A stretch of DNA of 32,000 bases from the NCBI GenBank assembly GCA_035626235.1, contig DASPOB010000029.1, positions 17,096 to 49,095 of the forward strand. The letters run 5' to 3'. The stretch's first letter is position 1. Every line of letters begins with the position of its first letter. Both the position numbers and the translations under genes were made by a program. The DNA comes from Nitrososphaerales archaeon. GTDB taxonomy: Archaea > Thermoproteota > Nitrososphaeria > Nitrososphaerales > Gagatemarchaeaceae. The notes beneath the pieces are model-generated. The model was not told the origin of the DNA, ran no database searches, and worked only from the letters and a program-made list of their open reading frames with translations. Shown piece after piece: positions 18,881 through 32,000 of the stretch.

Positions 18881-18926
18881 AGCAAGCGAAGGCTCAGGGT
18901 CCCGCGAGCGGCCCCGGCCACCCTCT

Positions 18927-18944
18927 ATTTTCAGTTCTGAGAAT
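18927..18944. promoter_or_regulatory. 18-bp imperfect palindrome ATTTTCAG-TT-CTGAGAAT just upstream of the oxidoreductase promoter (candidate operator)
   Basis: Read directly; 7 of 8 positions are complementary between the arms. It ends 12 nt before the TATA box at 18957. Confidence 0.35.
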
Positions 18945-18956
18945 CCGCTACCGACG

Positions 18957-18963
18957 TTAAATA
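18957..18963 (+). promoter_or_regulatory. TATA box (TTAAATA) of the 2-oxoacid:ferredoxin oxidoreductase operon
   Basis: The centre is 31 nt upstream of the GTG at 18991. Confidence 0.5.
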
Positions 18964-18990
18964 GCTTCGGCTTTCGCGGAAAATCCGAGC

Positions 18991-19245
18991 GTGACCACAG
19001 TGACTGACGGGCTGCCGAAGGCCCTGGTAGTCGTAGACGCCGAGAGATGCAAGGGATGCAGCCTGTGCGTGGTCACCTGCCCCCAGAAGAGCATGTCGCT
19101 GGCGCCATCCTTTAACCGGAATGGCTTCCATCCTGCAGTATTCCACTATCACGGTGAAAGGGGGGACTGCACAGCGTGCGGGATCTGCTACTGGGTCTGC
19201 CCCGACTATGCCGTGGCAGAAGTGAGGAGCCTGAAGCGGAAATGA
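18991..19245 (+). CDS. 2-oxoacid:ferredoxin oxidoreductase delta subunit (2x[4Fe-4S] ferredoxin-type)
   Basis: It has two CxxCxxCxxxCP motifs: 'CKGCSLCVVTCP' and 'CTACGICYWVCP'. Confidence 0.88.
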   Translation: MTTVTDGLPKALVVVDAERCKGCSLCVVTCPQKSMSLAPSFNRNGFHPAVFHYHGERGDCTACGICYWVCPDYAVAEVRSLKRK

Positions 19246-20306
19246 CCAGACGGGACTTCGTGAAAGGAAACGAAGCGCTGGCGCTGGGTGCCCTGAAGTC
19301 TGGGCTAAACGCCTACTTCGCATACCCCATAACCCCCTCCAGCGAAATCCCGGAGACCCTCGCCCAGCAGTTCAAGAGCCCAGAGTATCCCGACTTCAAA
19401 GTCTTCCTGCAGTCGTCAAGCGAGCTTGAAGCAATCAACATGGTGATGGGGGCAGCTGCGACGGGCGCCAAGGCCATGACTGCGACGTCAGGGCCGGGGT
19501 TCAGTCTCAAACAGGAAGGACTCTCGTACGCCGCGAGCATGGAGATACCGTTCCTCGTGGCAGACATCAACAGGGGGGGCCCAGGGCTGGGGAATCTGGG
19601 ACCGGAGCAGAGCGACTACTTCCAGGCGACCAAGGGCGGCGGGCACGGGGGCTACAGGAACATCGTCCTGGCGCCCAACTCGGTGCAGGAGATGGCCACG
19701 TTCCCGGGCCTGGGATTCTCACTTGCGTTCAAGTACAGGAACCCGGCGATCATACTAGCAGACGCTTTCCTGGGTCAGTTGAAGGAGGACACTGCGTTTC
19801 CAGCAATAACCAAAGAGAAGTTCGACACGCCGTGGGCGACGACGGGGGCGCGGGGAGAGACAAGGCACGTCCTCGTCTCGCTCCACCTCGATTTCGACGA
19901 CCAGAGCAGGCACGTGGAGCACCTGCTGAAGAAGTATGAAGAGATGGCCCGCGAGGAGCAGCGCGCCGAGTTGTACCTTACTGATGACGCAGACGTCGTG
20001 ATGGTGGCATTCGGTATCGTCTCAAGGCTGTGCAAGCAGGCAGTCAACACCCTTAGGGCCAAGGGCGTGCGCGCGGGCATGCTCAGGCCGATAACCCTGT
20101 CGCCCTTCCCTTCCAGATTCGTCTCGGAACTTGCCTCCAAAGGAGTGAAGAGGTTCGTGGTGGTGGAGCTCAACACTGGGCAGATGGTGACCGACGTCAG
20201 GCTGGCGCTGGAGGACGGTGGAAGGACAGAGAGCCTGAACAGATGGGGAGGAATCCTCCCGTCGTCGGGAGAGATTGTGGCACAGGTGGAGATGGCTTCG
20301 GCATGA
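19242..20306 (+). CDS. 2-oxoacid:ferredoxin oxidoreductase alpha subunit
   Basis: 'VKGNEALALGALKSGLNAYFAYPITPSSEI' and 'GAAATGAKAMTATSGPGFSL'. The ATG at 19242 overlaps the delta stop (ATGA). The N-terminal 22 aa of the track ORF are rejected. Confidence 0.9.
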   Translation: MTRRDFVKGNEALALGALKSGLNAYFAYPITPSSEIPETLAQQFKSPEYPDFKVFLQSSSELEAINMVMGAAATGAKAMTATSGPGFSLKQEGLSYAASMEIPFLVADINRGGPGLGNLGPEQSDYFQATKGGGHGGYRNIVLAPNSVQEMATFPGLGFSLAFKYRNPAIILADAFLGQLKEDTAFPAITKEKFDTPWATTGARGETRHVLVSLHLDFDDQSRHVEHLLKKYEEMAREEQRAELYLTDDADVVMVAFGIVSRLCKQAVNTLRAKGVRAGMLRPITLSPFPSRFVSELASKGVKRFVVVELNTGQMVTDVRLALEDGGRTESLNRWGGILPSSGEIVAQVEMASA

Positions 20307-21115
20307 TGCCCGGGCAGGAAGAGAGCGCGAACGAATACGAGGTTCGGCTGGGGAAGCTGTCGGCCCTGACCTCGAAGCCGACGCACTACTGCTCAGGCTG
20401 CGAACATGGGATTCTGACGAAACTGATAGCGAACGCCATCGATGAGCTGGAGATCAGGGAGAAGAGCGTGGTCATCGATTCCGTCGGGTGCAGCGTATTC
20501 GCGCACGAGTACATCAATGTGGACGCGATTCAGGCGCCTCACGGGAGGGCACCCGCCGTCATGGCCGGAATAAAGAGGGTCAGGCCAGACCTGGTCGTCT
20601 TCGCGGTACAGGGGGACGGCGACGCTGTTGCCATAGGCCTCCAAGAACTCATCTACGCGGCCAGCAGGAACGAACCCATCACCATATTCTTGGTCAACAA
20701 CGCCATATACGGGATGACCGGTGGGCAGATGGCGCCAACGACCCCGGAGGGAATGGTCACAACTACGACCCCCGAGGGACGGGACACGGCATACACAGGC
20801 ACCGTCATCGACGCCTCGAAGATGCTGGCCGGCATGGACGGGCCGTCCTACGTCAAGAGGGTATTCCTCCCGGTCGCGCCCCTTAGGACGAGAGACCTGT
20901 ACAGCGCGGCAGGACCCCTGGAGGGGGCGAGGAGCGTCGTGAACGCGTTCAAGGTCCAGCTTGCCGGAGGGTTCTCGTTCGTCGAATTCGTGAGCACCTG
21001 CAGCATAAACTGGAAGATGTCGGTGCTCGACTCGAAGAAGTACGCGGCGGAGGTCCTGTCAAAAATCTATCCCCCCGGGCTGTACAAGGACAAGCTAGGG
21101 ATCGAGAGGAAATGA
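20303..21115 (+). CDS. 2-oxoacid:ferredoxin oxidoreductase beta subunit (TPP-binding)
   Basis: 'YCSGCEHGI', 'DSVGCSVF', and 'AVQGDGDAVAIGLQELIYAASRNEPITIFLVNNAIYGMTGGQ', the TPP motif. The ATG at 20303 overlaps the alpha stop (ATGA). Confidence 0.9.
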   Translation: MMPGQEESANEYEVRLGKLSALTSKPTHYCSGCEHGILTKLIANAIDELEIREKSVVIDSVGCSVFAHEYINVDAIQAPHGRAPAVMAGIKRVRPDLVVFAVQGDGDAVAIGLQELIYAASRNEPITIFLVNNAIYGMTGGQMAPTTPEGMVTTTTPEGRDTAYTGTVIDASKMLAGMDGPSYVKRVFLPVAPLRTRDLYSAAGPLEGARSVVNAFKVQLAGGFSFVEFVSTCSINWKMSVLDSKKYAAEVLSKIYPPGLYKDKLGIERK

Positions 21116-21723
21116 AGACCCAGGTGATAATGGCAGGGCACGGGGGCCAGGGGGTTCTCGACCTCGCCAACTTCGTCTCCTTCTACCACATGCTGAAGGG
21201 AATGCACGTGGCGTACACTCCCTCGTACGGGCCGGAGAGCCGCGGGGGCAAGGTAAAGTGCTATGTTGTAGTCTCTGACGAGGAGATCGACTCGCCCATA
21301 GTGGAAGAGCCCGACTGTCTCATAATAATGAACACGCCGTCGATGGACTTCGTTCCGATCCTGAAGAAGGGAGGGACCCTGCTGATGAACACTTCCCTCA
21401 TCAAGGACGAGCCTAAGCGTGACGACGTGAAGGCAGTCAAGGTCCCGGTCACGGACATCGCTGCTGGACTTTCAGAACTGAAGCTCGAAGGGGTGAAGGA
21501 CCCGACGATAGCGGCCAACAGCGCGATGTTCGGAGCCTATCTGGCCCTGGGCGAGAAGACCTTCGAGGATGTGAGCGACGCGGTCAACGAAGTATTCGCC
21601 CACTTCCTGACCGACCGCAAGAAGGTCTACATCCCGCTCAACCTGAACGCGGTGCAGCGCGGGTATTCGTACGTGAGCCAGGGGGGCAAGGGGCATCCTC
21701 AGGCCCAAGTCGTCACAAGTTGA
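21112..21723 (+). CDS. 2-oxoacid:ferredoxin oxidoreductase gamma subunit
   Basis: 'VIMAGHGGQGVLDLANF' and 'TPSYGPESRGGKVKCYVVVSDEEI'. The ATG overlaps the beta stop (ATGA). Confidence 0.9.
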   Translation: MKTQVIMAGHGGQGVLDLANFVSFYHMLKGMHVAYTPSYGPESRGGKVKCYVVVSDEEIDSPIVEEPDCLIIMNTPSMDFVPILKKGGTLLMNTSLIKDEPKRDDVKAVKVPVTDIAAGLSELKLEGVKDPTIAANSAMFGAYLALGEKTFEDVSDAVNEVFAHFLTDRKKVYIPLNLNAVQRGYSYVSQGGKGHPQAQVVTS

Positions 21724-23059: not shown

Positions 23060-23317
23060 ATGTGCATCACGAAGGTCGGCAAGGTACTCTCGGCAGGCAA
23101 GGGCAGAGCCCAGGTCGAATTCTTCGGTGCCGGTGACTTGGGGGACGTCGACGTCTCGGTGGTCGGCGGGGTCACCGAAGGGGCTTTCGTCGAGGTGTTC
23201 GGAGATCTCGCGCTTTCCGTCCTCAGCCCTGCGGAAGCGAGGAGGAGGAAGGCGGTCTGGGATGAAGTGAGGAAGGCGGCGATGATGCCATCCCCGAGGA
23301 GGAGGGCACGGCCCTGA
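23060..23317 (+). CDS. hypC: [NiFe]-hydrogenase maturation chaperone HypC/HupF family
   Basis: It has the N-terminal 'MCITKVGKV' with the essential Cys2, and the OB-fold pattern '...AQVEFFG...VDVSVV..VTEGAFVEVFGDLALSVLSPAEA'. A GGAGG sequence lies 7 nt upstream of the ATG. Confidence 0.85.
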   Translation: MCITKVGKVLSAGKGRAQVEFFGAGDLGDVDVSVVGGVTEGAFVEVFGDLALSVLSPAEARRRKAVWDEVRKAAMMPSPRRRARP

Positions 23318-23355: not shown

Positions 23356-24081
23356 ATGCCAAACAGCCTAGGCTATTGCGGCCCCGACGACAGGGGGCTC
23401 ATCCTACGGCACATAGAAGAGTCCAAGGGGGGAGATAACCTCGCCTCGATTCTGAAGGAGTTTGAAGCGGCCTACCCTTTCCTGCGCCTCATTGCCAGGT
23501 CCACGGGAATGGACGCCTTCGACTACGCGGTGCCTGAAGCCTACTGGATCGGGAACTCGCTGCTCGACAGGGTGGAGACCCCCGAGTTCTACAGGTTCTC
23601 CCACCAAGAGCTGGTGGGCAAGGACCCGAAGGAGGTCAGGAGGTTGTTCAGGTCGGCGGGGGGGAGGGCAAGGCCTCACCACACGTTCTATGTGATGAGC
23701 ACCTACGCGACCTCAAGCGTCGCAGACGGCCCAAGCCTTTCCCAAGACGGGCGCCAGAAGGTCCAGGGGCTGATCAACAATTGCAGAATCTCCTGGGGAG
23801 AGGTGAAAGAGGTAGGTAAGAAGCGGCTGGCCGTCAAGTACGAGCCCGTGTTGCTGGACGACGGAAGGCTGTCCCTCGCCGCCCCTGCGGTCAGGAAGGT
23901 GAGCTACAACCCCGAAGTCGGGTCTTTCTCGAAGGTGAAGCCCGGTGACTGGGTGACCATGCACTGGGACTATGCCTGCGAAGTGATTTCTCCGGCGCAA
24001 CTCCGGAACATCGCCAAGTACACGGCGCTGGACATAGACGCGACCAACAGAATACTGAAGGCCTCTCCGCGAAAGCGTTGA
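23356..24081 (+). CDS. Conserved uncharacterised protein (DUF6390-like, N-terminal PN.LGYCGP motif) with a C-terminal HypC-like domain
   Basis: The 'MPNSLGYCGPDD' motif is present. Residues 143-215 (23782-24000), 'CRISWGEVKEVGKKRLAVKY...VKPGDWVTMHWDYACEVISPAQ', align by eye with the adjacent HypC ('CITKVGKVLSAGKGRAQVEF...VTEGAFVEVFGDLALSVLSPAE'). The family name is from memory. Confidence 0.7.
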   Translation: MPNSLGYCGPDDRGLILRHIEESKGGDNLASILKEFEAAYPFLRLIARSTGMDAFDYAVPEAYWIGNSLLDRVETPEFYRFSHQELVGKDPKEVRRLFRSAGGRARPHHTFYVMSTYATSSVADGPSLSQDGRQKVQGLINNCRISWGEVKEVGKKRLAVKYEPVLLDDGRLSLAAPAVRKVSYNPEVGSFSKVKPGDWVTMHWDYACEVISPAQLRNIAKYTALDIDATNRILKASPRKR

Positions 24082-24096: not shown

Positions 24097-24411
24097 CTAT
24101 TTCATCTTGGAGAGCTGTTCTATGCGGGAGATTCGAGCCTTGTCGAGCATCTCGAATGACTTCTTGAGGTCCGTGAGGGTTTCCACGTTCTCGCCTGACT
24201 CCTTGGCGAGCTGTTGGAAGACGTCCTTGGCCTGGGTATTCGTCTGCCTCGAGGCGAAGCGTTCATAGCTGCTGACAAGGTCCTCTTCGACGCCGATCCA
24301 GTTGACCAGAGTCTCGATAAGAGCTTCGACGTAGCCCGTCTTCACGGTCTCTTCCACCTTCCTCGCGTCGGAAACGGTCTCGACTTCGGCGATTATTCTC
24401 TCTCTCTTCAT
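24097..24411 (-). CDS. Hypothetical acidic all-helical protein (104 aa) downstream of the hydrogenase operon
   Basis: It has an ATG start, no recognisable family, and coding-like G/C third positions. It has its own TATA-like TTTAAAA at 24443-24449. Confidence 0.55.
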   Translation of the reverse strand: MKRERIIAEVETVSDARKVEETVKTGYVEALIETLVNWIGVEEDLVSSYERFASRQTNTQAKDVFQQLAKESGENVETLTDLKKSFEMLDKARISRIEQLSKMK

Positions 24412-24459: not shown

Positions 24460-25893
24460 TCAGACAAGTTGGTTCAGCAGGAGGAACGGCAGAAGGCCGG
24501 TGGCGAGACTCAGCAGGAGCATTAGGGCGGGGGGCGCCAGGTCAGCGGGCTTCCTCGCCTGCACGGACCCATCCCCCTTTCCGAAGACGACGGTGTTGAT
24601 TATCTTGTAGTAGTAACCGATGGAGAGCAGAATGTTGCCGACGACAATGACTGCCAGAAAGAAGAAGGGTCCAGTCTGAGCTGAGAGCAGGGCCCACACC
24701 ACGAGGATTTCGCTCCAGAACATCCCGAACGGGGGAGCACCCATCATCGCGAGCGAGTTTGAGGCGTAGAGGAAGCCCAGCGGCCTGTCCTGCCTCCCCG
24801 AACCCTTGAGTTTCTCGAGTTCCGCGTTCTCGTATGCGGAGTTCTCCTTCCCGAGCAGCATAAAGAAGTTGGACTTCAGGAGGCTGTGATTCCAGATGGT
24901 GAAGACTACGGCGACCAGCCCGGGGAAGCTCAGAGTCGACAAGGCTGCTAGCATGTAGCCCGTCTGGGCCACCGAGCTGAAGGAGAGGATCCGTCTGAGG
25001 TTGGTCTGCGCCAGACCGCTGAGGTTGCCCACCAGCATCGTCACCACGGCCAAGGCAGCAAGGAGGATCTGAATGTCCAGGATGCTAGAGGGAGGGGAGA
25101 CGGCCCCGACCAGGGGCTGTAGAATCTTCAGGATTGCGAAGACGCCGACTCCGGTCACTGCCCCCGAAATCAGGGATGCAGACGGGAGGGGAGCCGCGGC
25201 GTACACGTCCGGGAGCCACGTGTGCAGCGGGACAATCGCAGCCTCGACCCCCAATCCCATGATAAGGACAGCAAGGCCGAAGGCTCCCGCCGATGACCCG
25301 AGCGCCGTCAAGCCGGCTCCCAGCGCTATGGAGCCCGTGGCGGCGTTGATGACGGAGATGCCGTAGAGCGCGAGGAGGCTCCCTATTCCCGCCATGAAGA
25401 AATACTTCATCGTTGCCTCGAGCGAGAGCTGCCCCCTGCCGAAGCTGACCAGACCGTACGCCGCGACGCTCATCCCCTCCCAGAAGAGGAAGAGGGTCAG
25501 GTAGTCCCCGGCGGAGATGACCCCGACCAGCGAGCCCATAAGAAGCAGGACGAGGGCGTAGAACGGGCCGATGTTGTCGGAAGGGCCGAGGTGCCTCAAT
25601 GAGTACAGCGTCACGACGAAACCCACGACCAGGACCGTGAACGCGACGAAGATGCTGAACCTGTCCGCCAAGTAGACCGTCGCCAGCGCGGACGCGGTGG
25701 GCTGGGTTACGATGAAACCTTGGTCAGGGACCCATTCAGAGATCAGAAGGGCAAGGGAGACCAGAATTGCCCCGCCGCAGACAGCTCCGACTGCGTACCC
25801 CCTGCGGCTCCCCTTGCGTCCAGCGGCGAAGTCCGCCAGCAGGGAAAGGACCGCTGCCGCGAAGAGGACTTCCATCACCGAAGTTATCCACAT
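24460..25893 (-). CDS. Antiporter-like membrane subunit (NuoN/NuoM/MrpD family) of the membrane-bound hydrogenase
   Basis: 477 aa and polytopic. The core has proton-conducting-transporter motifs 'FLFWEGMSVAAYGLV', 'PLHTWLPDVYAAAP' and 'LRRILSFSSVAQTGYM'. It starts 2 nt after the NuoL-like stop. Confidence 0.88.
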   Translation of the reverse strand: MWITSVMEVLFAAAVLSLLADFAAGRKGSRRGYAVGAVCGGAILVSLALLISEWVPDQGFIVTQPTASALATVYLADRFSIFVAFTVLVVGFVVTLYSLRHLGPSDNIGPFYALVLLLMGSLVGVISAGDYLTLFLFWEGMSVAAYGLVSFGRGQLSLEATMKYFFMAGIGSLLALYGISVINAATGSIALGAGLTALGSSAGAFGLAVLIMGLGVEAAIVPLHTWLPDVYAAAPLPSASLISGAVTGVGVFAILKILQPLVGAVSPPSSILDIQILLAALAVVTMLVGNLSGLAQTNLRRILSFSSVAQTGYMLAALSTLSFPGLVAVVFTIWNHSLLKSNFFMLLGKENSAYENAELEKLKGSGRQDRPLGFLYASNSLAMMGAPPFGMFWSEILVVWALLSAQTGPFFFLAVIVVGNILLSIGYYYKIINTVVFGKGDGSVQARKPADLAPPALMLLLSLATGLLPFLLLNQLV

Positions 25894-25895
25894 GT

Positions 25896-27641
25896 CTACA
25901 GAACCCCCACCGCGAACAGGACGAACAACGTCATGACCGCAAGAAGAATCAGGGCGGCGTTAGCCTCGAGCAGCCCCGTCTGGATGGACGAAACGGCCTT
26001 TGCCAGAGGCCCGGCGACCCCCCTGTAGATTCCCGAGTACAGCCGGTCGAAGCCGAGGCCCTCCAGCAGCGCCCCCTTCAAGGACTTCATGGTCGGGGAG
26101 GTCGCCGCGAGCTGCTTCGTCTTCTGGGCATACAGCGAGAAGGCCAGGTAGACGACGAGGAGACTCGCTGCGAGGACGGAGAGGGAGGTGGCGAGCGTAG
26201 CCACGTCCGGGAGCCCGAGCGAGGCTATCGGGTAGATTGTCTGAGGATACAGGACGCCCCAGGCAAGTATTACCGAAATCGAGAGCACGATGATGGGGAC
26301 GAGCATCACGGCAGGAGACTCCGAGGCGGTTCCCTTCCCTCTGGGCTGCCCGAAGAAGACCTTGGCGAGGGCCCTGAAGCTGTACAGGCCGGTGGCCGCG
26401 AACGCTAGTATGAGGGCCGCGACCTGCAGTGGTCCAGCCGCGAAGGCCAGCGAGAGGACTGCGTCCTTGCTCCAGAAGCCAATCAGCGGCGGCAGGCCGC
26501 TCATGGCAAGCATTGCTAGCGTGAATCCCACGAAAGTGTACTTCATCTGCTTCCTGAGGCCTCCCATCTCCTCCATGTCTCTGGTCTCCACCGCAGTGAT
26601 CACCGAGCCGGCGGCAAGGAAGGCGAGCGCCTTGAAGAGCCCCTGGCTCACCATGTGATAGGTGGCCGCGACCCCGTTCCCCATCCCCACAGCCGCGAAC
26701 ATGATTCCAAGCTGGCTTATGGTGGAGTAGGCCAGCACGCGCTTCAGGTCCTGTGCACCGAAGGCGCAGACGCCTCCCACGAGGGCGCTCAGGAGACCCA
26801 CGAAGGTGACGATGTAGAGAAGCTCCTGCTGCAGCAGGAACAGAGGGAGCATCCTGACCATGAGGAACACTCCGGCGTTCACCATCGTAGCAGCGTGGAT
26901 TAGCGCCGACACGGTGCTAGGACCTTCCATGGCGTCGGGGAGCCAGCCGTGCAGCGGGACCTGGGCTGACTTGCCCATGGCCCCCACAAGTATCAGCACG
27001 CCCAGAAGGAATACAGTCCCTCCGCCGAGGGTGGAAACCCCCTGGGGCCCGAGGACCGTCGTGAAGCTCGTGGTGCCGAATATCCACCAGACGAGGATGA
27101 CCGCCAGCAGAAGGGCCGCGTCCCCGAACCTGGTCACGACGAATGCCTTCACTCCCGCCTTCCGGGCGGACTCCCGGTCCGTGAAGAATGCGATCAGGAG
27201 AGCGGAGCAGACGCCGACGATTTCCCAGAAGAAGTAGAATTGGATGAGGTTGCCGGCCATCACCAGCCCGAGCATTGCCCCGATGAAGAGGAGTATCAGG
27301 GAGTAGTATCTCGTGAGCCCCTCCCCTCCCTCTTTCTGCATGTAGCCAATGGAGTAGACCACAACCAGAAACGAGACAAACGCGACGAAGGCCGAGACAA
27401 GGACCGAAAGGCTGTCCACCTGAACCTCGATGGACACGCTGAGCGGAGGCAGCCAGAGATGGAGGCTCTCGGTTGCGGGCCCGGCGAAGTCCAGCGCCCC
27501 CAGAGTGGCCAGGACGAGCGACGCGCCGCTCACGACCACCGCGAACCAGCCCCGAAGCCTCTTGTCGACCATTCCCAGGAGGGTCACGAACGGGACTGAG
27601 AGCAGCGGGATGAGCCAGGTGAGCCAGGCGGTGTAGATCAT
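25896..27641 (-). CDS. Antiporter-like membrane subunit, NuoL/MrpA type, with a C-terminal amphipathic helix and terminal TM
   Basis: The true start 'MIYTAWLTWLIPLL' (ATG at 27641) overlaps the NuoK-like stop (ATGA). 'FYFFWEIVGVCSALLIAF', 'PLHGWLPDAMEGPSTVSALIHAATMV' and 'LKRVLAYSTISQLG' are present. The C-terminus is 'GFDRLYSGIYRGVAGPLAKAVSSIQTGLLE' followed by a TM. The first 128 aa of the 709-aa track ORF are rejected. Confidence 0.9.
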   Translation of the reverse strand: MIYTAWLTWLIPLLSVPFVTLLGMVDKRLRGWFAVVVSGASLVLATLGALDFAGPATESLHLWLPPLSVSIEVQVDSLSVLVSAFVAFVSFLVVVYSIGYMQKEGGEGLTRYYSLILLFIGAMLGLVMAGNLIQFYFFWEIVGVCSALLIAFFTDRESARKAGVKAFVVTRFGDAALLLAVILVWWIFGTTSFTTVLGPQGVSTLGGGTVFLLGVLILVGAMGKSAQVPLHGWLPDAMEGPSTVSALIHAATMVNAGVFLMVRMLPLFLLQQELLYIVTFVGLLSALVGGVCAFGAQDLKRVLAYSTISQLGIMFAAVGMGNGVAATYHMVSQGLFKALAFLAAGSVITAVETRDMEEMGGLRKQMKYTFVGFTLAMLAMSGLPPLIGFWSKDAVLSLAFAAGPLQVAALILAFAATGLYSFRALAKVFFGQPRGKGTASESPAVMLVPIIVLSISVILAWGVLYPQTIYPIASLGLPDVATLATSLSVLAASLLVVYLAFSLYAQKTKQLAATSPTMKSLKGALLEGLGFDRLYSGIYRGVAGPLAKAVSSIQTGLLEANAALILLAVMTLFVLFAVGVL

Positions 27642-27946
27642 GCCCGCATCCTCCTTATCTCTGCGGGGTTGAGCGTCCGATACTTCCTGAAGACGGTCAC
27701 TATGACCGCCAGTCCGGCGGCTTCCACCGCGGCCCCGACCAGGATGGACAGGATGACGAACACGTGGATCTGGAGGTCGGGAGGCGCCAGGAGCCCCGAC
27801 GTGTACAGCGCGAGGTTCGCCCCGAACACCGCAACCTGGAACGCCATCATGCTCTTGATTAGGTTCTTGGAGAACGCAATGGACGCGATTCCCAAGAGGA
27901 GCAGAGCGGTCCCAGTCGCCATCAGAATGGCCTCGTCTGGCTGCAT
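27638..27946 (-). CDS. NuoK/MnhC-like small membrane subunit
   Basis: 102 aa with 3 TM. 'LLLLGIASIAFSKNLIKSMMAFQVAVFGANLAL' and '...VGAAVEAAGLAVIVTVFR' are typical of NuoK. Confidence 0.8.
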   Translation of the reverse strand: MQPDEAILMATGTALLLLGIASIAFSKNLIKSMMAFQVAVFGANLALYTSGLLAPPDLQIHVFVILSILVGAAVEAAGLAVIVTVFRKYRTLNPAEIRRMRA

Positions 27947-28429
27947 CTACCCGTTCCTCGCTAGAAGGTTGGCCACGGCCAGCATCGACGAAGCGAAAAC
28001 CGTCACGAGGATCAGCAAGTCCCAAGGCCTGAACTGCCAGGCGAAGCCCATAACGGTAGCCGAGACGTCAGACAGGAGGGTGGTGGGAGCCCCGGCCAGA
28101 CCGGACGTGAGAACGTAGACGCAGGTGACCGCCACCGCGAGTGTAAGGGCAGTCAGGCCCACCGAGACCTTCCCTGCGCCTATGTCGAGCTTAGACTCCC
28201 CCGTAATCAGTATGACAGAGAGCAGGAGGACGGAGACCGCCCCCGCGAACGTCACCATGGTGAGAAGACCCACGAGGACGTCGCCGTATATGGTGAAGAC
28301 GACCCCCAGCATGATCGAGGCGTAGAATAGCGCAATCAGGGAGATGGAGACCTTTCTGGAGAAGAGGGCCACGAGGACTGTCGCCAGGAGGACCCCCGCG
28401 ACAGCCAGCGCTATGTACTCACTTACCAA
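27947..28429 (-). CDS. NuoJ-like membrane subunit
   Basis: 160 aa with about 5 TM. The N-terminus 'ALAVAGVLLATVLVALFSRKVSISLIALFYASIMLGVVFTIYGDVLVGLLTMVTFAGAVSVLLL' has NuoJ-like topology. The position between the I-like and K-like genes fits. The TAG stop abuts the nuoK-like ATG. Confidence 0.7.
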   Translation of the reverse strand: MVSEYIALAVAGVLLATVLVALFSRKVSISLIALFYASIMLGVVFTIYGDVLVGLLTMVTFAGAVSVLLLSVILITGESKLDIGAGKVSVGLTALTLAVAVTCVYVLTSGLAGAPTTLLSDVSATVMGFAWQFRPWDLLILVTVFASSMLAVANLLARNG

Positions 28430-28814
28430 CCACTAGCGCCTTCTTCATGAGGGTCGATTCCTTCTTGAACACTGCGAGCTCGAAGTCCCTCGTGAGGGTC
28501 AGAGCCCCGAACTTGCAGTCATCAACGCACTGCCCGCAGGAGATGCAGGCGAAGAGCTCGAAGCTCGGCCGCTTGATGTCAACCTCCCTGTCCCCGACCT
28601 TCTTCTTGCCTACGGGGACCATGGTGATGACCTGTGCCGGACAGACGATCTCGCAGATGCTGCAGCCGGTGCACTTGACGGGGTCTATGTCGAGCTTCCC
28701 CCTGAACCTCTCTGTGACTACCTTCTTGCCGAACGGGTACTCCACGGTGACGGGGCGTTCCAGGCCGGTCCTGAACATCTCTCCGACTGCCCCGCCGACT
28801 TTTCTTCCTGGCAA
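28419..28814 (-). CDS. NuoI/HycF/MbhN-like 2x[4Fe-4S] ferredoxin subunit
   Basis: 'CTGCSICEIVCP' and 'CISCGQCVDDC' are present, along with an N-terminal 'VEYPF...RFRG'. The start is TTG at 28814; alternative ATG at 28778. Confidence 0.88.
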   Translation of the reverse strand: MPGRKVGGAVGEMFRTGLERPVTVEYPFGKKVVTERFRGKLDIDPVKCTGCSICEIVCPAQVITMVPVGKKKVGDREVDIKRPSFELFACISCGQCVDDCKFGALTLTRDFELAVFKKESTLMKKALVVGK

Positions 28815-28819
28815 GTCTA

Positions 28820-29794
28820 TTACCTCAGCACCACCAGAATGGCGACGGCGAGTTGTGCAAGGCTGAGGGGCGTCAGGATCGTCCAGAAGAGCCGCGTCGC
28901 CTGGTCGATTCTCACCCTGGCCAGGGCGGTCCTTATGACGAAGATAACGAAGCCGACGGCGAAGAGCTTAACGAGGAAGTAGGCCGTGTAGAGGATTGCC
29001 TGTACGGTCGGGTCCGCGCTGAGCACCGGCCCACCAGCTCCGCCAAGAAAGAGGCTCACCGCCAGGGCGGAGAGGAAGGCGTAACTCAGGTTCTTCGTGA
29101 GCTTGACGTAGGCGAGGGTGTTCCCTGAGAATTCTGTCATCCACCCGCCCACGATTTCGGTCTTGGCGCTGGGGATGTCGAAGGGGGGTTTTTCCAGCTC
29201 GGCGAGCGCCGCGATGATGAAGACCGCGAAGGCAACCGGAGCCAGGAAGATGAACCAGAGGTTGGCCTGGGCGCCTGCGATTCCGGCTATGGACAGGTTG
29301 CGGGCGAGCACGGCCGGGGTCACCATGGCAATGATCATCGGGATCTCGTAACTCGTGTACTGGACGACGAGGCGACCGATCGCTATCGTCGAATAGCGGC
29401 CTGCAGAAGCATAACCGAGCATCAACGCCATGAGCGTGGAGAATGCGAGTATGAAGAGCATGAAGAGCAGGTCCAGGGGGTCGTATAGTATGGACTGGGC
29501 GCCCACCACGGGGATGAAGGCCACTCCGATTGCCGGGGCAGCGAAGTACAGCGCCGGCCCCCATCTGAGGACGAAGCTGTCGCTCTCTGCCGGGACGATC
29601 TCTTCCTTGGCCGCGAGCTTGAAGAAGTCGGCCACCGGCTGGAGAATCCCGTAGGGACCGGTTACGACCGGGCCGCGACGTCCCTGCATGCGCGCGGCAG
29701 TCTTCCTCTCAAGCCATTCGAAGAGGAAGGCCAGCCAGACGAAGAAGGTGAGGCCAGGAAAGAGGAGCAGTTGAAGGATCTCCAGCGGGGTCAC
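28820..29794 (-). CDS. NuoH/HycD/MbhM-like membrane subunit
   Basis: 'ERKTAARMQGRRGPV...GILQPVADFFKL' and 'LAELEKPPFDIPSAKTEIVGGWMTEFSG' are NuoH-family hallmarks. The GTG start overlaps the large-subunit stop (GTGA). Confidence 0.9.
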   Translation of the reverse strand: MTPLEILQLLLFPGLTFFVWLAFLFEWLERKTAARMQGRRGPVVTGPYGILQPVADFFKLAAKEEIVPAESDSFVLRWGPALYFAAPAIGVAFIPVVGAQSILYDPLDLLFMLFILAFSTLMALMLGYASAGRYSTIAIGRLVVQYTSYEIPMIIAMVTPAVLARNLSIAGIAGAQANLWFIFLAPVAFAVFIIAALAELEKPPFDIPSAKTEIVGGWMTEFSGNTLAYVKLTKNLSYAFLSALAVSLFLGGAGGPVLSADPTVQAILYTAYFLVKLFAVGFVIFVIRTALARVRIDQATRLFWTILTPLSLAQLAVAILVVLR

Positions 29795-31035
29795 TTGTTG
29801 CCACCCCTCTTGCTGTAGTAGTCAATCCCGTACCTCCTGAGCGCCTCTCCTCCGATAGACCATTCCTTTCCCTTGCTGACGTCAAGCACCGCGATTCGGT
29901 CCATGCATCCGAAGCACGGGTCCATGCCGGTCAGCACGACGGGGACGTCCGCCAGGGTGTGCCCTTTCAGCATCTCCACGCCGGTGAGTATGTTCGCCAT
30001 GGTCGAAGTCCTGATCTTTACCCTCTCTGGAGTGCTACCTCCCGCGGACTTCACGTAGTAGAAGAGCTCACCTCGCGGGGCTTCGACGTGGAACATCGAC
30101 TCGCCGGCCGGGATGGCCCTTGGGATATTGACCTTGAAGTCCCCCGAAGGCATCTTGTCGACGGCCTCCTTGATCATCCTGCAAGAGTCGCGCGCCTCAT
30201 TGAGCCTGATCGAGACGAGGGAGGCAATGTCCCCATCATTGCTCGTCATGACCTCGGGGACGACTTCGTCGTACGCTGCGTAGGGGTCCTCGACCCTGAT
30301 GTCTCGTGGGATGCCCGTGCATCTGAGGAGAGGGCCGACGGTCGACAGGCGCCGGGTCACCTCCTGGTTGATCCGCCCCATCCCCTTCGTTCTGATGGCG
30401 AACGTCTCTTCGCTCTTCATGAGGCCGTCGTAGTAGTTGAGCCTCTTCTCGATGAACCCGGCCTCTGTCTTGAGTTTCTCGGCCATGCCGTCGGGCAGGT
30501 CCTTCCTGACCCCGCCAATGGTCGAGTAGGACTTGTTGACTCTGTTCCCTGTTATCGCCTCGAGCAGGTCGAGGGAGTGTTCCCTGTCCTTCCAGATCCA
30601 CATGAAGAGGGTGTCGAAGCCGGCCCAGTGGCCGATCAGCCCCAACCAGAGGAGATGAGAGTGTATCCTCTCCAGCTCGTGGACCACGGTGCGCAGGTAC
30701 CTTGCCCGCTTTGGGATTTCAAACTGGGTCAGGTTCTCCACCCCCTGGGTGTATCCAAGGCTGTGGGAGAAGCTGCAGATGCCGCAAATCCTCTCTACAA
30801 GATAGACGTTCTTGACCCATGTCCGGTCCTGGGCGGCCCTCTCAATCCCCCTGTGGACGTACCCGATCCTGGGCATCACCTGGACTATCTTCTCCCCCTC
30901 GAGAATGAGCTTGAAGTATTCCGGCTCCTTTAGCGAAGGATGAACGGGCCCGAAGGGCATGGCGCTCTCCGCAGAGTACTCCATGAGCCCGGCGCTCGAT
31001 TCGGTGTAGTGGGCTCCTTCTGAGTTGTCACTCAA
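29791..31035 (-). CDS. Group 4 [NiFe]-hydrogenase large (catalytic) subunit, NuoD/HycE/EchE/MbhL homologue, with a C-terminal extension
   Basis: 'FGPVHPS' and 'GYVHRGIE' are present. The Ni-Fe motif L1 is 'RICGICSFSH' (30763-30792) and L2 is 'DPCFGCMDR' (29896-29922). L2 is followed by 34 aa, 'IAVLDVSKGKEWSIGGEALRRYGIDYYSKRGGNK'. The start is TTG at 31035; alternative ATG at 30984. Confidence 0.92.
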   Translation of the reverse strand: MSDNSEGAHYTESSAGLMEYSAESAMPFGPVHPSLKEPEYFKLILEGEKIVQVMPRIGYVHRGIERAAQDRTWVKNVYLVERICGICSFSHSLGYTQGVENLTQFEIPKRARYLRTVVHELERIHSHLLWLGLIGHWAGFDTLFMWIWKDREHSLDLLEAITGNRVNKSYSTIGGVRKDLPDGMAEKLKTEAGFIEKRLNYYDGLMKSEETFAIRTKGMGRINQEVTRRLSTVGPLLRCTGIPRDIRVEDPYAAYDEVVPEVMTSNDGDIASLVSIRLNEARDSCRMIKEAVDKMPSGDFKVNIPRAIPAGESMFHVEAPRGELFYYVKSAGGSTPERVKIRTSTMANILTGVEMLKGHTLADVPVVLTGMDPCFGCMDRIAVLDVSKGKEWSIGGEALRRYGIDYYSKRGGNK

Positions 31036-31486
31036 GCTTCAGCATCTTCCTGATCTTGGCGGGGTCGGCCTCCCTCCTCAGGGGGGCCGGCGCGTCCGTC
31101 GGATACTCGTCTGGCAGGACGAACCTCCCCTTCATGTAGGGGTTTCCGTCGAAGAATATGCCCATGAGATCCTTGACTTCGGCTTCGTAAAACACCGCCG
31201 CCGGTACGGCGGGGGTGATCGAGGGGATTCTCGCATCGGTCTTGGGGACCAGCGTCTTTACCACGGCGAAGGTCTTCCCTTTCCAGAAATGGTACAGCAC
31301 CGCGATCTGGTCGCCAAGGTCCAAGGCGGTGATGGTGCTGAGGTGATAGTAGCCAGGCATGGCGGCGACCTTGGCGCAGGCCTCGGGGACCTTCTCGCGG
31401 CTGACGTTGAGGAAGACCGCCTTCTTGCTCGTGGTTACGGTGCCTCCGGTCTCGGCGGCTATCGCCTGCATGGACTCAACTGACAA
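31028..31486 (-). CDS. NuoC/MbhK-like subunit (30-kDa family)
   Basis: 'HLSTITALDLGDQIAVLYHF', 'PSITPAVPAAVFYEAEVKDLMGIFFDGNP' and 'FVLPDEYP' are present. It overlaps both neighbouring genes, by 11 and 8 nt. Confidence 0.85.
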   Translation of the reverse strand: MSVESMQAIAAETGGTVTTSKKAVFLNVSREKVPEACAKVAAMPGYYHLSTITALDLGDQIAVLYHFWKGKTFAVVKTLVPKTDARIPSITPAVPAAVFYEAEVKDLMGIFFDGNPYMKGRFVLPDEYPTDAPAPLRREADPAKIRKMLKLE

Positions 31487-31946
31487 CCTGTCGCGCCTCC
31501 TCCGGCTTGTCGGGGATTCCCGTCACCAGCTTCAGTATCCCGTAGATTATTCCCTCAGGATTCGGTGGGCAGCCGGGAATGTACAGGTCCACTGGAATCA
31601 CTGTGTCAATTCCGTGACCGGCGTTGTAGCAGTCTCTCATGACCCCTCCCCCGAGAGCGCACGCGCCGATGGCAACCACGAGTCTGGGCTCAGGCATCTG
31701 GTCGTACACTGTCTTGAGGCGGTCTTTCATCAGGGGGTTCATCGTTCCCGTCACCAGCAGGACATCGGCGTGCCGCGGGCTGGGCACCAGCTCCACACCC
31801 AGGCGCTCGGCATCGTACTTGGGGGTCAGAGCCGCGAGGATCTCTATGTCGCAGCCGTTGCAGGAGGCAGCGTTGACGTGGAAGACCCAGATGGACCGCT
31901 TTCTCGCCCAGGCCGTCAGACCGGACTTAAAACTCGCCACCCCCAA
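31476..31946 (-). CDS. Group 4 [NiFe]-hydrogenase small subunit (NuoB/HycG/EchC/MbhJ homologue)
   Basis: The four cluster ligands are 'SCNGCDIE' (CxxC, 31851-31862), 'AIGACALGGG' and 'IPGCPPNPE'. The start is TTG at 31946, or GTG at 31940. Confidence 0.9.
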   Translation of the reverse strand: MGVASFKSGLTAWARKRSIWVFHVNAASCNGCDIEILAALTPKYDAERLGVELVPSPRHADVLLVTGTMNPLMKDRLKTVYDQMPEPRLVVAIGACALGGGVMRDCYNAGHGIDTVIPVDLYIPGCPPNPEGIIYGILKLVTGIPDKPEEARQVVS

Positions 31947-32000
31947 CCAACAGGTACCACCACACGACTACTGTGACCACCCCTCCGCCGCCGACAAGGA
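31927..32000 (-). CDS. 3' end of an upstream hydrophobic ORF (possible NuoA-like subunit), truncated by the window edge
   Basis: My translation of the minus strand is ...LVGGGGVVTVVVWWYLLVGGGEF*, with TAA at 31927-31929. It overlaps the small-subunit start by 20 nt, as other genes in this operon overlap. The identity is inferred from position only. Confidence 0.3.
   Translation of the reverse strand, partial: LVGGGGVVTVVVWWYLLVGGGEF

What the first reader, a model, noticed from the sequence alone, without database searches (positions are those of the whole stretch)
24460..32000. Complex I (nuo/fpo) gene order encoding what is still a bona fide [NiFe] hydrogenase
Nine translationally coupled minus-strand genes have overlaps of 4-11 nt or gaps of 5 nt or less. 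They follow the order B-C-D-H-I-J-K-L-N, which is diagnostic of respiratory complex I and Fpo. A hydrophobic ORF end sits where nuoA would be. The catalytic pair, however, is hydrogenase-type. The D-like subunit keeps both Ni-Fe cysteine pairs (RICGICSFSH at 30763-30792; DPCFGCMDR at 29896-29922). The B-like subunit has the CxxC first cluster motif of group 4 small subunits (SCNGCDIE, 31851-31862) rather than the adjacent CC of NuoB. The characterised group 4 enzymes I know (Ech, Hyc/Hyf, Coo, Mbh, Eha/Ehb) use other gene orders and other membrane modules. Complex I, Fpo, Mbx/MBS and the Ehr-type intermediates have lost some or all of these cysteines. No NuoEFG or FpoF/O input module is present, so reduced ferredoxin is the likely donor. 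The locus therefore looks like a complex-I-architecture enzyme that has not yet given up H2 chemistry, which bears on how complex I evolved from hydrogenases.
Basis: partly seen in the sequence, partly recalled or inferred. Interest (0 to 1): 0.85.

Follow-up and report, generated by a model that had tools for sequence, protein, structure and literature searches.

The report
Complex-I-shaped nickel-iron hydrogenase gene cluster

Summary
Nine coupled minus-strand genes (B-C-D-H-I-J-K-L-N) sit at the stated coordinates, and the four cysteines align with the Ni-Fe ligands of HycE and MbhL. The cluster is larger than reported. On the source contig it runs HycI-like protease, NuoA-like, B, C, D, H, I, J, K, L, N, then a conserved 104-aa gene. 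hypC, DUF6390 and a 2-oxoacid:ferredoxin oxidoreductase lie next to it, and no NuoEFG or FpoFO is present.

The complex is a mosaic:
- B and D are hydrogenase-type.
- H and L are complex-I-type. L has a lateral-helix linker about 25 residues shorter than in E. coli NuoL.
- N is MbsH-like.
- NuoM is absent.

The same cluster occurs in about 50 species of Nitrososphaerales, Bathyarchaeia and Thermoplasmata.

The most likely function is a reversible, ferredoxin-coupled, proton-translocating [NiFe] hydrogenase.

The novelty claim fails in part. Loh et al. 2021 described an Fpo-like 11-subunit [NiFe] hydrogenase, Hfo (HydDB 4g), in Bathyarchaeia. This clade is its nearest neighbour but differs from it: C and D are unfused, M is missing, and there is an extra gene. 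I rate it a new variant of a known, biochemically uncharacterised kind.

The parts
31927..32000 (-). 3' end of the NuoA-like membrane subunit; the gene runs off the window
   Evidence: The source contig L072 gives the full 118-codon ORF, ending ...VVWWYLLVGGGEF*. hhalign of the family against E. coli NuoA gives E 8e-4, with the invariant Glu74 aligned to NuoA D79. There is no Pfam hit.
31476..31946 (-). Small subunit (NuoB/MbhJ-like) carrying one [4Fe-4S] cluster, with a CxxC first motif at 31851-31862
   Evidence: Pfam Oxidored_q6. Best PDB hits are MbhJ 170 bits, HycG 141 and complex I PSST about 133. The alignment shows SCNGCDIE matching HycG GCNGCEIE, against NuoB SCCY.
31028..31486 (-). 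NuoC/MbhK-like subunit, not fused to D
   Evidence: Pfam Complex1_30kDa, 77 bits.
29791..31035 (-). [NiFe] large subunit. L1 is at 30763-30792, L2 at 29896-29922, and a 34-residue C-terminal tail at 29794-29895
   Evidence: Pfam Complex1_49kDa plus NiFeSe_Hases. Best PDB hits are HycE 268 bits, MbhL 262, NuoD-type about 215 and MbsL 188. The ligand cysteines align, and the tail aligns with the cleaved tail of HycE. The motifs are invariant across the clade and tails are 31-37 aa.
28820..29794 (-). NuoH-like membrane subunit
   Evidence: Pfam NADHdh, 277 bits. PDB hits are NuoH/NdhA/ND1 at 138-112 bits, against MbhM 65, MbsM 62 and HycD 46.
28419..28814 (-). NuoI-like 2x[4Fe-4S] subunit, the likely ferredoxin entry point
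   Evidence: Two CxxCxxCxxxC motifs. Pfam Fer4_7. Best PDB hit is cyanobacterial NdhI at 71.6 bits; HycF scores 56.
27947..28429 (-). NuoJ-like membrane subunit (divergent)
   Evidence: No Pfam or NCBIfam hit. hhalign of the family against E. coli NuoJ gives E 4e-5 over the TM3 motif FAGAVSVLLL / YAGAIMVLFV.
27638..27946 (-). NuoK-like membrane subunit
   Evidence: Pfam Oxidored_q2. NuoK E36 is replaced by Gln and the second Glu is displaced by one residue, in all members checked.
25896..27641 (-). NuoL-type antiporter-like subunit with a shortened lateral helix
   Evidence: Scores 437.5 bits on TIGR01974, above its cut-off. Best PDB hits are NdhF/NuoL at 279-258 bits. E144, D178, K229, K342, K399 and D400 (E. 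coli numbering) are all conserved. The AF2 model (pLDDT 84.5) shows TM15 at 480-503, helices over 505-553 and TM16 at 558-577. Foldseek top hits are all NuoL/ND5/NdhF, TM 0.77-0.86.
24460..25893 (-). Second antiporter-like subunit; sits in the NuoN position but is MbsH/MbhH-like
   Evidence: PDB hits are MbsH 161.8 bits, MbhH 125.5, MrpD 106.8 and Nqo14 105.8. The TM7 Lys is replaced by Glu, as in MbsH, and the TM12 position is Glu.
24097..24411 (-). Conserved 104-aa soluble protein (called X104 here), function unknown
   Evidence: It follows N in essentially every locus of the clade. It has no Pfam family. AF2 predicts a two-helix hairpin, pLDDT 92.6. Similarity to half-ferritins is weak and not significant.
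23356..24081 (+). DUF6390 protein, divergently adjacent; a possible accessory factor
   Evidence: Pfam DUF6390, 168 bits. It is paired with hypC beside the cluster in Nitrososphaerales loci.
23060..23317 (+). HypC maturation chaperone
   Evidence: Pfam HupF_HypC, 31.4 bits, above its cut-off. Its position is conserved.
19176..21723 (+). 2-oxoacid:ferredoxin oxidoreductase alpha, beta and gamma subunits; a likely source of reduced ferredoxin (context, inferred)
   Evidence: Pfam POR_N/PFOR_II, TPP_enzyme_C and POR.

Best explanation
The locus encodes a functional, membrane-bound, energy-converting group 4 [NiFe] hydrogenase built on a shortened complex-I-like scaffold.

Proposed mechanism:
- Reduced ferredoxin, for example from the neighbouring 2-oxoacid:ferredoxin oxidoreductase, donates electrons to the two [4Fe-4S] clusters of the NuoI-like subunit.
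- Electrons pass to the single [4Fe-4S] cluster of the small subunit B, and then to the Ni-Fe site of D, where protons are reduced to H2.
- The free energy is transmitted through the NuoH/A/J/K-like module to two antiporter-like subunits. These are an MbsH-like 'N' and a NuoL-type 'L', clamped by a short lateral helix. They export protons.
- The reaction is expected to be reversible.
- The large subunit is matured by Hyp proteins and by a HycI-type protease encoded at the head of the operon, which removes the 34-residue C-terminal tail.

Shown: gene content, ligand positions, maturation genes, subunit affinities and conservation. Inferred: the ferredoxin donor, the physiological direction, the translocated ion and the stoichiometry.
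For: - All four Ni-Fe cysteines, the L1 His and the APRGE Arg align with HycE and MbhL. They are invariant in 16 representative relatives.
- The HycE-like C-terminal tail is present.
- A HycI-family protease precedes nuoA on the source contig. Pfam PF01750 scores 24.8 bits on the 94%-identity ortholog. BLASTP of the contig's own copy against E. coli HycI gives E 1e-6, and the residues aligned to HycI's DD, D and H motif positions are the same.
- HypC lies in the window. hypA or hypF lie upstream in related loci.
- B has the hydrogenase CxxC motif and is closest to MbhJ and HycG.
- No NuoEFG or FpoFO lies within 10 kb on either side.
- The 2-oxoacid:ferredoxin oxidoreductase genes are adjacent.
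- L keeps every NuoL channel residue and has a NuoL fold with TM15, lateral helices and TM16.
- The 12-gene cluster is conserved in about 50 species at 55-94% identity of D, which indicates purifying selection.
Against: - There is no biochemical datum for this clade or for any 4g enzyme.
- The ferredoxin-to-H2 span is small for a machine with two antiporter-like subunits. That favours a low stoichiometry or physiological operation in reverse.
- The coupling path is altered. NuoK Glu36 is Gln, and the TM7 Lys of N is Glu.
- Relatives of this lineage are described as mostly aerobic (PMC10640624), so an O2-sensitive H2-evolving enzyme would work only in anoxic microsites.
- Only hypC is seen near the locus in this genome.
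Confidence: 0.72

Rival explanations
1. Same enzyme, opposite physiological direction. It oxidises H2 and uses the proton-motive force to push electrons uphill onto ferredoxin, in the manner of Eha/Ehb. This is what Loh et al. proposed for Hfo. It would supply low-potential reductant to an otherwise respiratory heterotroph.
For: - Loh et al. argue this direction for the related Hfo.
- Two antiporter-like subunits plus a NuoH module are a large coupling apparatus for the small ferredoxin/H2 potential gap.
- The lineage has terminal oxidases that could supply the proton-motive force (PMC10640624).
- 2-oxoacid:ferredoxin oxidoreductases are reversible.
Against: - Neither the window nor the papers read point to an autotrophic or acetogenic pathway that needs much reduced ferredoxin in this lineage.
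- The neighbouring oxidoreductase, malic enzyme and PPDK fit catabolism, which produces reduced ferredoxin.
- Direction cannot be read from sequence.
Confidence: 0.22
2. A post-hydrogenase respiratory complex, like Fpo-like, Mbx/MBS or Ehr. It would keep the cysteines for another purpose and reduce quinone, sulfur or an unknown acceptor rather than protons.
For: - H and L are much closer to complex I than to Mbh or Hyc subunits.
- N is closest to MbsH of the sulfur-reducing MBS.
- NCBIfam scores B above the NuoB cut-offs.
Against: - All four ligands, the L1 His and the PRGE Arg are invariant across the clade.
- The protease-cleavable tail, the HycI-like protease and HypC are all linked to the cluster.
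- The quinone-binding Tyr and His positions of Nqo4 are occupied by hydrogenase-type residues.
- Known MBS, Fpo and Nuo large subunits have lost these features.
Confidence: 0.04
3. An ordinary complex I operon, as the public annotations of several subunits imply.
For: NCBI and JGI name the L and D homologs 'NADH-quinone oxidoreductase subunit L/D'. The gene order is nuo-like.
Against: - D scores below the NuoD and FpoD cut-offs (328 against 360, and 294 against 600).
- D carries a NiFeSe_Hases domain.
- There is no M subunit.
- B has CxxC instead of CC.
- Hydrogenase maturation genes are attached to the cluster.
Confidence: 0.01

Closest known systems
Hfo, the Fpo-like 11-subunit [NiFe] hydrogenase of Bathyarchaeia subgroup Bathy-6 (Loh, Herve and Brune 2021, PMC7886697; HydDB subgroup 4g)
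   Same: - nuo/fpo-like gene order.
- L1/L2 Ni-Fe motifs retained.
- No NuoEFG or FpoFO.
- No Mrp-type Na+ module.
- Ferredoxin is the presumed partner.
- Uncharacterised biochemically.
- The nearest representative outside the window clade, P0121 (50% identity), lies in a cluster A-B-CD-H-I-J-K-L-M-N that matches the published hfo subunit list.
   Different: - Here C and D are separate genes.
- NuoM is absent, giving 10 Nuo-like subunits instead of 11.
- The L linker between TM15 and TM16 is 48-49 residues, against 102 in the Hfo-like L.
- A conserved 104-aa gene follows N. The 106-aa ORF after N in the Hfo-like locus is not homologous to it.
- The hosts are Nitrososphaerales, Thermoplasmata and other Bathyarchaeia.
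- The sister relation has only 28% NJ bootstrap support.
- I could not obtain the termite-gut sequences themselves.
MBH, the membrane-bound hydrogenase of Pyrococcus furiosus (group 4d, PDB 6CFW)
   Same: - Ferredoxin-to-H2 chemistry is inferred for both.
- B is closest to MbhJ (170 bits) and D is close to MbhL (262 bits).
- The small subunit has a single [4Fe-4S] cluster.
   Different: - MBH has one antiporter-like subunit plus an Mrp-derived Na+ module, and a different gene order.
- MbhL has no C-terminal tail in the deposited chain.
- Here H and L are complex-I-type: MbhM scores 65 bits against 138 for NuoH, and MbhH 166 against 279 for NdhF/NuoL.
MBS, the membrane-bound sulfane-sulfur reductase of P. 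furiosus (PDB 6U8Y)
   Same: - Two antiporter-like subunits.
- The window's N is most similar to MbsH (161.8 bits) and shares its TM7 Lys-to-Glu substitution.
   Different: - MbsL scores lower against D than the hydrogenase large subunits do (188 bits). From my own knowledge, not tested here, MbsL has lost the Ni-Fe ligands, MBS reduces polysulfide, and MBS carries Mrp-type small subunits.
- The L-like MbsH' is only distantly similar to the window's L (102 bits).
Respiratory complex I and archaeal Fpo / Fpo-like 11-subunit complexes
   Same: - Gene order A-B-C-D-H-I-J-K-L-N.
- H and L are closest to the NuoH and NuoL families.
- L keeps all NuoL channel residues and a lateral helix plus TM16.
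   Different: - D keeps the Ni-Fe site where the quinone-binding Tyr and His would be.
- B has CxxC, not CC.
- There is no M subunit.
- N is not NuoN-type.
- NuoK Glu36 is absent.
- Hydrogenase maturation genes are attached to the cluster.
Formate hydrogenlyase Hyc and Hyf of E. coli (group 4a, PDB 7Z0S)
   Same: - D is the best PDB match to HycE (268 bits), including the cleavable C-terminal tail.
- A HycI-type protease is present.
   Different: - There is no HycB or formate dehydrogenase partner.
- The gene order differs.
- HycE carries a fused NuoC-like N-terminus.
- HycD and HycC are poor matches to H and L (46 and 86 bits).
Ech (group 4e)
   Same: Both are presumed ferredoxin-coupled and ion-translocating, with no extra input module.
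   Different: From my own knowledge, Ech has six subunits with a single antiporter-like EchA and no NuoA/J/K/L set. No Ech sequence was compared here.

Membership tests
Group 4 (energy-converting, membrane-bound) [NiFe] hydrogenases | The large subunit has L1 (CxxC...H) and L2 (DPCxxCxxR) motifs at the Ni-Fe ligand positions | tested here: met
   phmmer alignments to HycE and MbhL. MAFFT columns across 197 sequences.
Group 4 (energy-converting, membrane-bound) [NiFe] hydrogenases | The small subunit has a single [4Fe-4S] cluster and a CxxC first motif | tested here: met
   Alignment with HycG and NuoB. Best PDB hits are MbhJ and HycG.
Group 4 (energy-converting, membrane-bound) [NiFe] hydrogenases | NuoH-like and antiporter-like membrane subunits are encoded in the same cluster | tested here: met
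Group 4 (energy-converting, membrane-bound) [NiFe] hydrogenases | Maturation machinery: Hyp proteins, an endopeptidase and a C-terminal tail on the large subunit | tested here: met
   HypC in the window. A HycI-like protease upstream on the source contig. A 34-aa tail aligned to the HycE tail. hypA, B, D, E and F were not located in this genome.
Group 4 (energy-converting, membrane-bound) [NiFe] hydrogenases | H2 turnover coupled to ion translocation | not testable with these tools
   Needs biochemistry.
HydDB subgroup 4g | Assignment by the HydDB classifier or its reference tree | not testable with these tools
   HydDB is not available here. 4g is described as loosely clustered and polyphyletic. 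The nearest relative's architecture equals that of Hfo, which HydDB placed in 4g.
[quoted passage not shown] 2021) | nuo/fpo gene order, retained L1/L2 motifs, and no FpoFO or NuoEFG | tested here: met
[quoted passage not shown] 2021) | Eleven subunits, including HfoM | tested here: not met
   Only two Proton_antipo_M genes, L and N, are present here and across the clade.
[quoted passage not shown] 2021) | Fused HfoCD catalytic subunit (supplementary table) | tested here: not met
   C (152 aa) and D (414 aa) are separate genes with an 8-nt overlap.
[quoted passage not shown] 2021) | The large subunit falls in the same clade as the Bathy-6 HfoCD | tested here: inconclusive
   The closest outside representative is an Hfo-architecture CD fusion, P0121 (50% identity). 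The NJ sister grouping has 28% bootstrap support.
Respiratory complex I / Fpo | NuoD/FpoD lacks the Ni-Fe cysteines and has a quinone or phenazine site (Tyr and His of Nqo4) | tested here: not met
   D scores below the NuoD and FpoD cut-offs.
Respiratory complex I / Fpo | Three antiporter-like subunits, L, M and N | tested here: not met
Respiratory complex I / Fpo | NuoL with a lateral helix and a C-terminal anchor TM | tested here: met
   AF2 model and Foldseek. The linker is shortened to 48-49 residues, against 74 in E. coli.
MBH (group 4d) | Mrp-derived Na+ module (MbhA-C, F) and a single antiporter-like MbhH | tested here: not met
   Every gene of the cluster is accounted for as a Nuo-like subunit, and no extra Mrp-type small subunits are present. 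There are two antiporter-like subunits.
MBS/MBX | Loss of the Ni-Fe ligands in the L subunit | tested here: not met
   The ligands are retained. Only the N subunit resembles MbsH.

The most novel reading that the evidence does not exclude
This 10-subunit clade (NuoL- and NuoH-type arm, MbsH-type second pump, Mbh/Hyc-type catalytic pair) is the closest living hydrogenase to the complex I membrane arm. In aerobic or facultative soil Thaumarchaeota it would run as a switch partner of complex I. Under anoxia it would vent ferredoxin electrons as H2. When respiring, it would run backwards on trace H2 to make low-potential ferredoxin. That would add an unrecognised H2 source or sink in acidic soils and peat, where these archaea are abundant. 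X104 would be a new accessory subunit specific to the clade.
Probability: 0.18. Interest if true: 0.75.

Novelty: new variant of a known kind. Interest (0 to 1): 0.5.

Why it matters
Evolutionary interest:
- Group 4 hydrogenases are the accepted ancestors of complex I.
- An enzyme that already has the nuo gene order, a NuoH- and NuoL-type arm and a lateral helix, but still keeps Ni-Fe chemistry, is a natural intermediate. It could be used to study how redox chemistry became coupled to antiporter modules.
- That idea was published for Bathyarchaeia in 2021.

What this locus adds:
- A shorter sister form is widespread in non-ammonia-oxidising Nitrososphaerales (Group I.1c / Gagatemarchaeaceae relatives), peat Bathyarchaeia and some Thermoplasmata.
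- The two genomic papers on those Nitrososphaeria that I read do not mention any hydrogenase.
- Public annotation calls several subunits complex I. Metabolic reconstructions may therefore miscount it as NADH dehydrogenase and miss an H2-cycling capacity in acidic soils and peat.

Tried and rejected
- Pfam and NCBIfam gave no hit for the A-like and J-like proteins. Only weak profile alignments to E. coli NuoA and NuoJ support the names.
- X104 has no family. The Foldseek matches to encapsulated ferritins and EncB are not significant (E >= 0.18), and two-helix hairpins are common. The idea that it is a di-iron half-ferritin is weakened by the absence of any His in the window clade. It is not homologous to the ORF after N in the Hfo-like locus.
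- In the NJ tree of 160 large-subunit sequences, only the window clade (100%) and its internal splits are supported. All deeper nodes are unresolved (support 0.00-0.29), so I make no claim about placement relative to NuoD/FpoD.
- The representative library carries no names, so subgroup labels (4b-4i) could not be put on the tree.
- Literature searches for 'Fpo-like/Nuo-like/complex I-like hydrogenase' found only the Loh et al. paper and one unrelated paper. A search for Asgard 'Complex I-like subunits' hydrogenases found nothing in the held library.
- A reading as ordinary complex I, or as an Mbx/Fpo-like post-hydrogenase, was considered and rejected because of the ligands, the tail, the protease and HypC.

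Full report
**1. What is in the sequence**

The region 24460-32000 holds nine tightly packed minus-strand ORFs:

| Gene | Coordinates |
|---|---|
| B | 31476-31946 |
| C | 31028-31486 |
| D | 29791-31035 |
| H | 28820-29794 |
| I | 28419-28814 |
| J | 27947-28429 |
| K | 27638-27946 |
| L | 25896-27641 (ATG at 27641) |
| N | 24460-25893 |

- Junctions are -11, -8, -4, +5, -11, 0, -4 and +2 nt.
- Pfam and NCBIfam assign B to Oxidored_q6, C to Complex1_30kDa, D to Complex1_49kDa plus NiFeSe_Hases, H to NADHdh, I to a two-cluster ferredoxin (NuoI-like), K to Oxidored_q2, and L and N to Proton_antipo_M. J has no hit.
- G+C is even (0.58-0.64) across the window, so nothing suggests a recent insertion.

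**2. The cysteines are at the ligand positions**

- phmmer against PDB sequences aligns RICGICSFSH with HycE RVCGICGFAH and MbhL RMCGICSFSH. It aligns DPCFGCMDR with DPCYSCTDR and DPCLSCTDR.
- T. thermophilus Nqo4 has RMDYLHSFAH and DPVMGDVDR at the same positions, and the MAFFT columns give RIEYLGGCVN and DFVMSDVDR for E. coli NuoCD.
- D continues 34 residues beyond the DR of L2. That tail aligns with the tail of HycE. From general knowledge, HycI removes the HycE tail.
- By score, D is closer to hydrogenase large subunits (HycE 268 bits, MbhL 262) than to NuoD-type chains (about 215) or MbsL (188). It falls below the NCBIfam cut-offs for NuoD (328 against 360) and FpoD (294 against 600).
- B has SCNGCDIE, like HycG GCNGCEIE, where NuoB has SCCY. 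It keeps the GAC and PGCPP cysteines. Its best PDB matches are MbhJ (170 bits) and HycG (141), ahead of complex I PSST (about 133).

**3. The cluster is larger than reported**

An exact-match look-up found the source contig: NCBI GCA_964489775.1 CAZBAH010000040.1, 99 kb, and an ENA twin. NCBI names an identical protein as coming from a 'Nitrososphaerales archaeon'.

Upstream of B:
- A NuoA-like gene lies there. Its last residues are the hydrophobic ORF end at 31927-32000.
- Before it lies a 189-aa protein of the HycI protease family. Pfam PF01750 scores above its cut-off on the 94%-identity ortholog. BLASTP of the contig's own copy against E. coli HycI gives E 1e-6. The aligned residues match at HycI's GN..DD, DA and THN motifs. 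From my own knowledge these hold the metal ligands.

Downstream of N:
- A 104-aa gene (24097-24411), which I call X104.
- Then, divergently, DUF6390, hypC and an MFS transporter.
- Then the three subunits of a 2-oxoacid:ferredoxin oxidoreductase.
- Pyruvate phosphate dikinase and malic enzyme lie further on.

No NuoEFG- or FpoFO-like gene lies within 10 kb on either side.

**4. Conservation**

- The protein database holds hundreds of D homologs at 70-90% identity. Where named, they come from Nitrososphaerales, 'Thaumarchaeota' or Gagatemarchaeaceae MAGs.
- A scan of one genome per GTDB species returned 67 loci.
- About 50 of them carry the same order: protease, A, B, C, D, H, I, J, K, L, N, X104.
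  - Nitrososphaerales: D at 63-94% identity.
  - Three Thermoplasmata MAGs: D at 66-72% identity.
  - Bathyarchaeia: D at 55-59% identity.
- A Bathyarchaeial sub-variant has the order protease-B-C-D-I-A-H-J-K-L-N-X104, with a 1076-1080-aa L that contains two antiporter modules.
- L1 is R[ITV]CGICSF[SAV]H, L2 is DPCFGCMDR, and the tail is 31-37 aa in the 14 standard-order representatives examined (44-54 aa in the two Bathyarchaeial sub-variant ORFs).

**5. The complex is a mosaic**

- H is complex-I-type: NuoH/NdhA/ND1 score 138-112 bits, against MbhM 65, MbsM 62 and HycD 46.
- L is NuoL-type.
  - It scores above the TIGR01974 cut-off.
  - NdhF/NuoL/Nqo12 score 279-258 bits, against MrpA 208, MbhH 166 and HycC 86.
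  - It keeps E144, D178, K229, K342, K399 and D400 in E. coli numbering.
  - The AF2 model (pLDDT 84.5) has TM15 at 480-503, amphipathic helices over 505-553 and a final TM at 558-577. Its best fold matches are all NuoL/ND5/NdhF chains.
- The TM15-to-TM16 linker length tracks the number of antiporter-like subunits:

| Cluster | Antiporter-like subunits | Linker (residues) |
|---|---|---|
| Window L | two | 48-49 |
| L075, L076 | two | 40-47 |
| E. coli NuoL | three | 74 |
| Hfo-like L (L071) | three | 102 |

  The lateral helix therefore seems cut to span one neighbour instead of two.
- N sits in the NuoN position but is closest to MbsH (161.8 bits) and MbhH (125.5). Its TM7 Lys is replaced by Glu throughout the clade. 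P. furiosus MbsH has the same substitution; MbhH, MrpD and Nqo14 do not.
- The NuoK-like subunit has Gln at E36, and its second Glu is displaced by one position.
- A and J are divergent. Only weak profile alignments link them to NuoA (E 8e-4, invariant Glu on D79) and to NuoJ TM3 (E 4e-5).
- NuoM is absent.

**6. Mechanism**

- Firm inference: this is a matured, functional, membrane-bound [NiFe] hydrogenase.
- Electron path: I (two clusters), then B (one cluster), then Ni-Fe. This follows from homology with MBH, FHL and complex I.
- Ferredoxin as the partner is inferred from three things: the lack of any input module, the adjacent 2-oxoacid:ferredoxin oxidoreductase, and the resemblance of I to NdhI of the ferredoxin-dependent cyanobacterial NDH-1.
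- Proton translocation is inferred from the intact NuoL channel residues and from the absence of Mrp-type Na+ subunits.
- Direction cannot be read from sequence.
  - I favour H2 evolution as a ferredoxin sink in anoxic microsites.
  - The reverse reaction is a serious alternative: H2-driven ferredoxin reduction powered by the proton-motive force, as Loh et al. proposed for Hfo.

**7. Comparison with what is known**

- Loh, Herve and Brune (2021, PMC7886697) described Hfo in termite-gut Bathyarchaeia. [quoted passage not shown] HydDB placed it in 4g. They noted similar clusters in Ca. Methanomethylicus and Pyrodictium delaneyi, and argued that it closes the gap between hydrogenases and complex I.
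- Their subunit table lists hfoA, B, CD, H, I, J, K, L, M and N.
- An exhaustive HMMER search of 1.84 billion cluster representatives gave, as nearest neighbour of the window's D, a 560-aa CD fusion (P0121, 50% identity). Its contig reads A-B-CD-H-I-J-K-L(649)-M-N, which is exactly that architecture.
- In an NJ tree the window clade (16 representatives) has 100% bootstrap support. P0121 is its sister at only 28%, and deeper nodes are unresolved.
- Other near relatives use the same ten subunit types in other orders:
  - J-K-L-N-(104 aa)-B-C-D-H-I-HycI.
  - B-CD-I-H-J-K-L-N, directly followed by a Cys-less nuo operon.
- The 4g label itself is loose and polyphyletic.
- The Loh paper does not mention Thaumarchaeota.
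- Two genomic papers on non-ammonia-oxidising Nitrososphaeria and Gagatemarchaeaceae contain no mention of hydrogenase in their main text.
- NCBI and JGI label L, and often D, as NADH-quinone oxidoreductase subunits.

**8. X104**

- The 104-aa protein has no family.
- Its invariant residues are E20, E21, T25, G26, Y27, E29, W38, V41, E42, D44, L45, Y49, L68 and R96.
- It folds as a confident two-helix hairpin.
- Hints of a half-ferritin relationship exist: NCBIfam EncB at E 0.004, Pfam Rubrerythrin on a Bathyarchaeial ortholog, and Foldseek EncFtn/EncB at E >= 0.18. None is significant.
- The window clade has no histidine at all.
- Its function is open.

**9. Verdict**

- The functional reading is supported.
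- The claim of being unprecedented is not.
- The locus is a member of a widespread, undescribed sister variant of the published but uncharacterised Hfo-type hydrogenases: shorter by one pump, with unfused C and D, and with an extra conserved gene.
- Interest is moderate. The locus is useful for complex I evolution and for H2 cycling in acidic soils and peat, but it is not a new category.

Noticed in passing
window 24097-24411 (-): A conserved 104-aa gene (X104) follows N in every locus of the clade. It has no Pfam family. AF2 predicts a two-helix hairpin (pLDDT 92.6). Similarity to half-ferritins (EncFtn/EncB) is weak and not significant. Bathyarchaeial orthologs carry E..H-like motifs, but the window clade has no His.
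   Followed up: yes
window 23356-24081 (+) and 23060-23317 (+): DUF6390 is paired with hypC next to the hydrogenase cluster in most Nitrososphaerales loci. A 33%-identical DUF6390 also sits beside a different group 4 hydrogenase in an Iainarchaeum MAG (L064). It may be an unrecognised hydrogenase accessory or maturation factor.
   Followed up: partly
window 24460-25893 (-), residue in motif GLGVEAAIVPLH: The TM7 lysine, conserved in NuoL/M/N, MrpD and MbhH, is glutamate in this subunit across the clade. P. furiosus MbsH (6u8y_H, AVEAELFPL) has the same substitution. The TM12 position is also Glu.
   Followed up: partly
window 27638-27946 (-): The NuoK-like subunit lacks the TM2 glutamate (E. 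coli E36 is Gln here), and the second glutamate is shifted by one residue. This holds in all relatives checked, so the central coupling path differs from complex I.
   Followed up: partly
L055 10001-11231 (same contig as L001, CAWCFU010000001.1): A second copy of the large-subunit gene, 75% identical at the protein level, has 5 in-frame stops and no flanking operon. It is a decayed paralog about 145 kb from the intact cluster.
   Followed up: no
L075 9580-21629 (CP094288.1, closed 1.83-Mb genome): A B-CD(NiFe)-I-H-J-K-L-N hydrogenase cluster is directly followed, on the same strand, by a Cys-less nuoA-B-C-D-H-I-J... operon. A hydrogenase and its complex I counterpart therefore lie in tandem.
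   Followed up: no
L031, L036, L038, L039, L041 (Bathyarchaeia): A sub-variant has the order protease-B-C-D-I-A-H-J-K-L-N-X104. Its L is 1076-1080 aa and holds two Proton_antipo_M modules, an apparent L-M fusion. Its H is 68-72% identical to the window's H although D is only 57% identical.
   Followed up: partly
public annotation of homologs: NCBI and JGI name the L subunit, and often D, 'NADH-quinone oxidoreductase subunit L/D'. Two genomic papers on non-AOA Nitrososphaeria and Gagatemarchaeaceae never mention a hydrogenase in their main text. The cluster may be routinely counted as complex I.
   Followed up: partly
window 15409-21723 (+) and 5080-6459 (-): Pyruvate phosphate dikinase, a MarR/TrmB-like regulator, the three-subunit 2-oxoacid:ferredoxin oxidoreductase and a malic enzyme cluster near the hydrogenase. 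This forms a pyruvate/2-oxoacid node that would make reduced ferredoxin.
   Followed up: no
L076 4557-13019 (DASVYS010000163.1): The same ten subunit types appear in a different order, J-K-L-N-(104-aa NuoA-like?)-B-C-D-H-I-HycI, flanked by two-component regulators. The D subunit is 44% identical to the window's.
   Followed up: no
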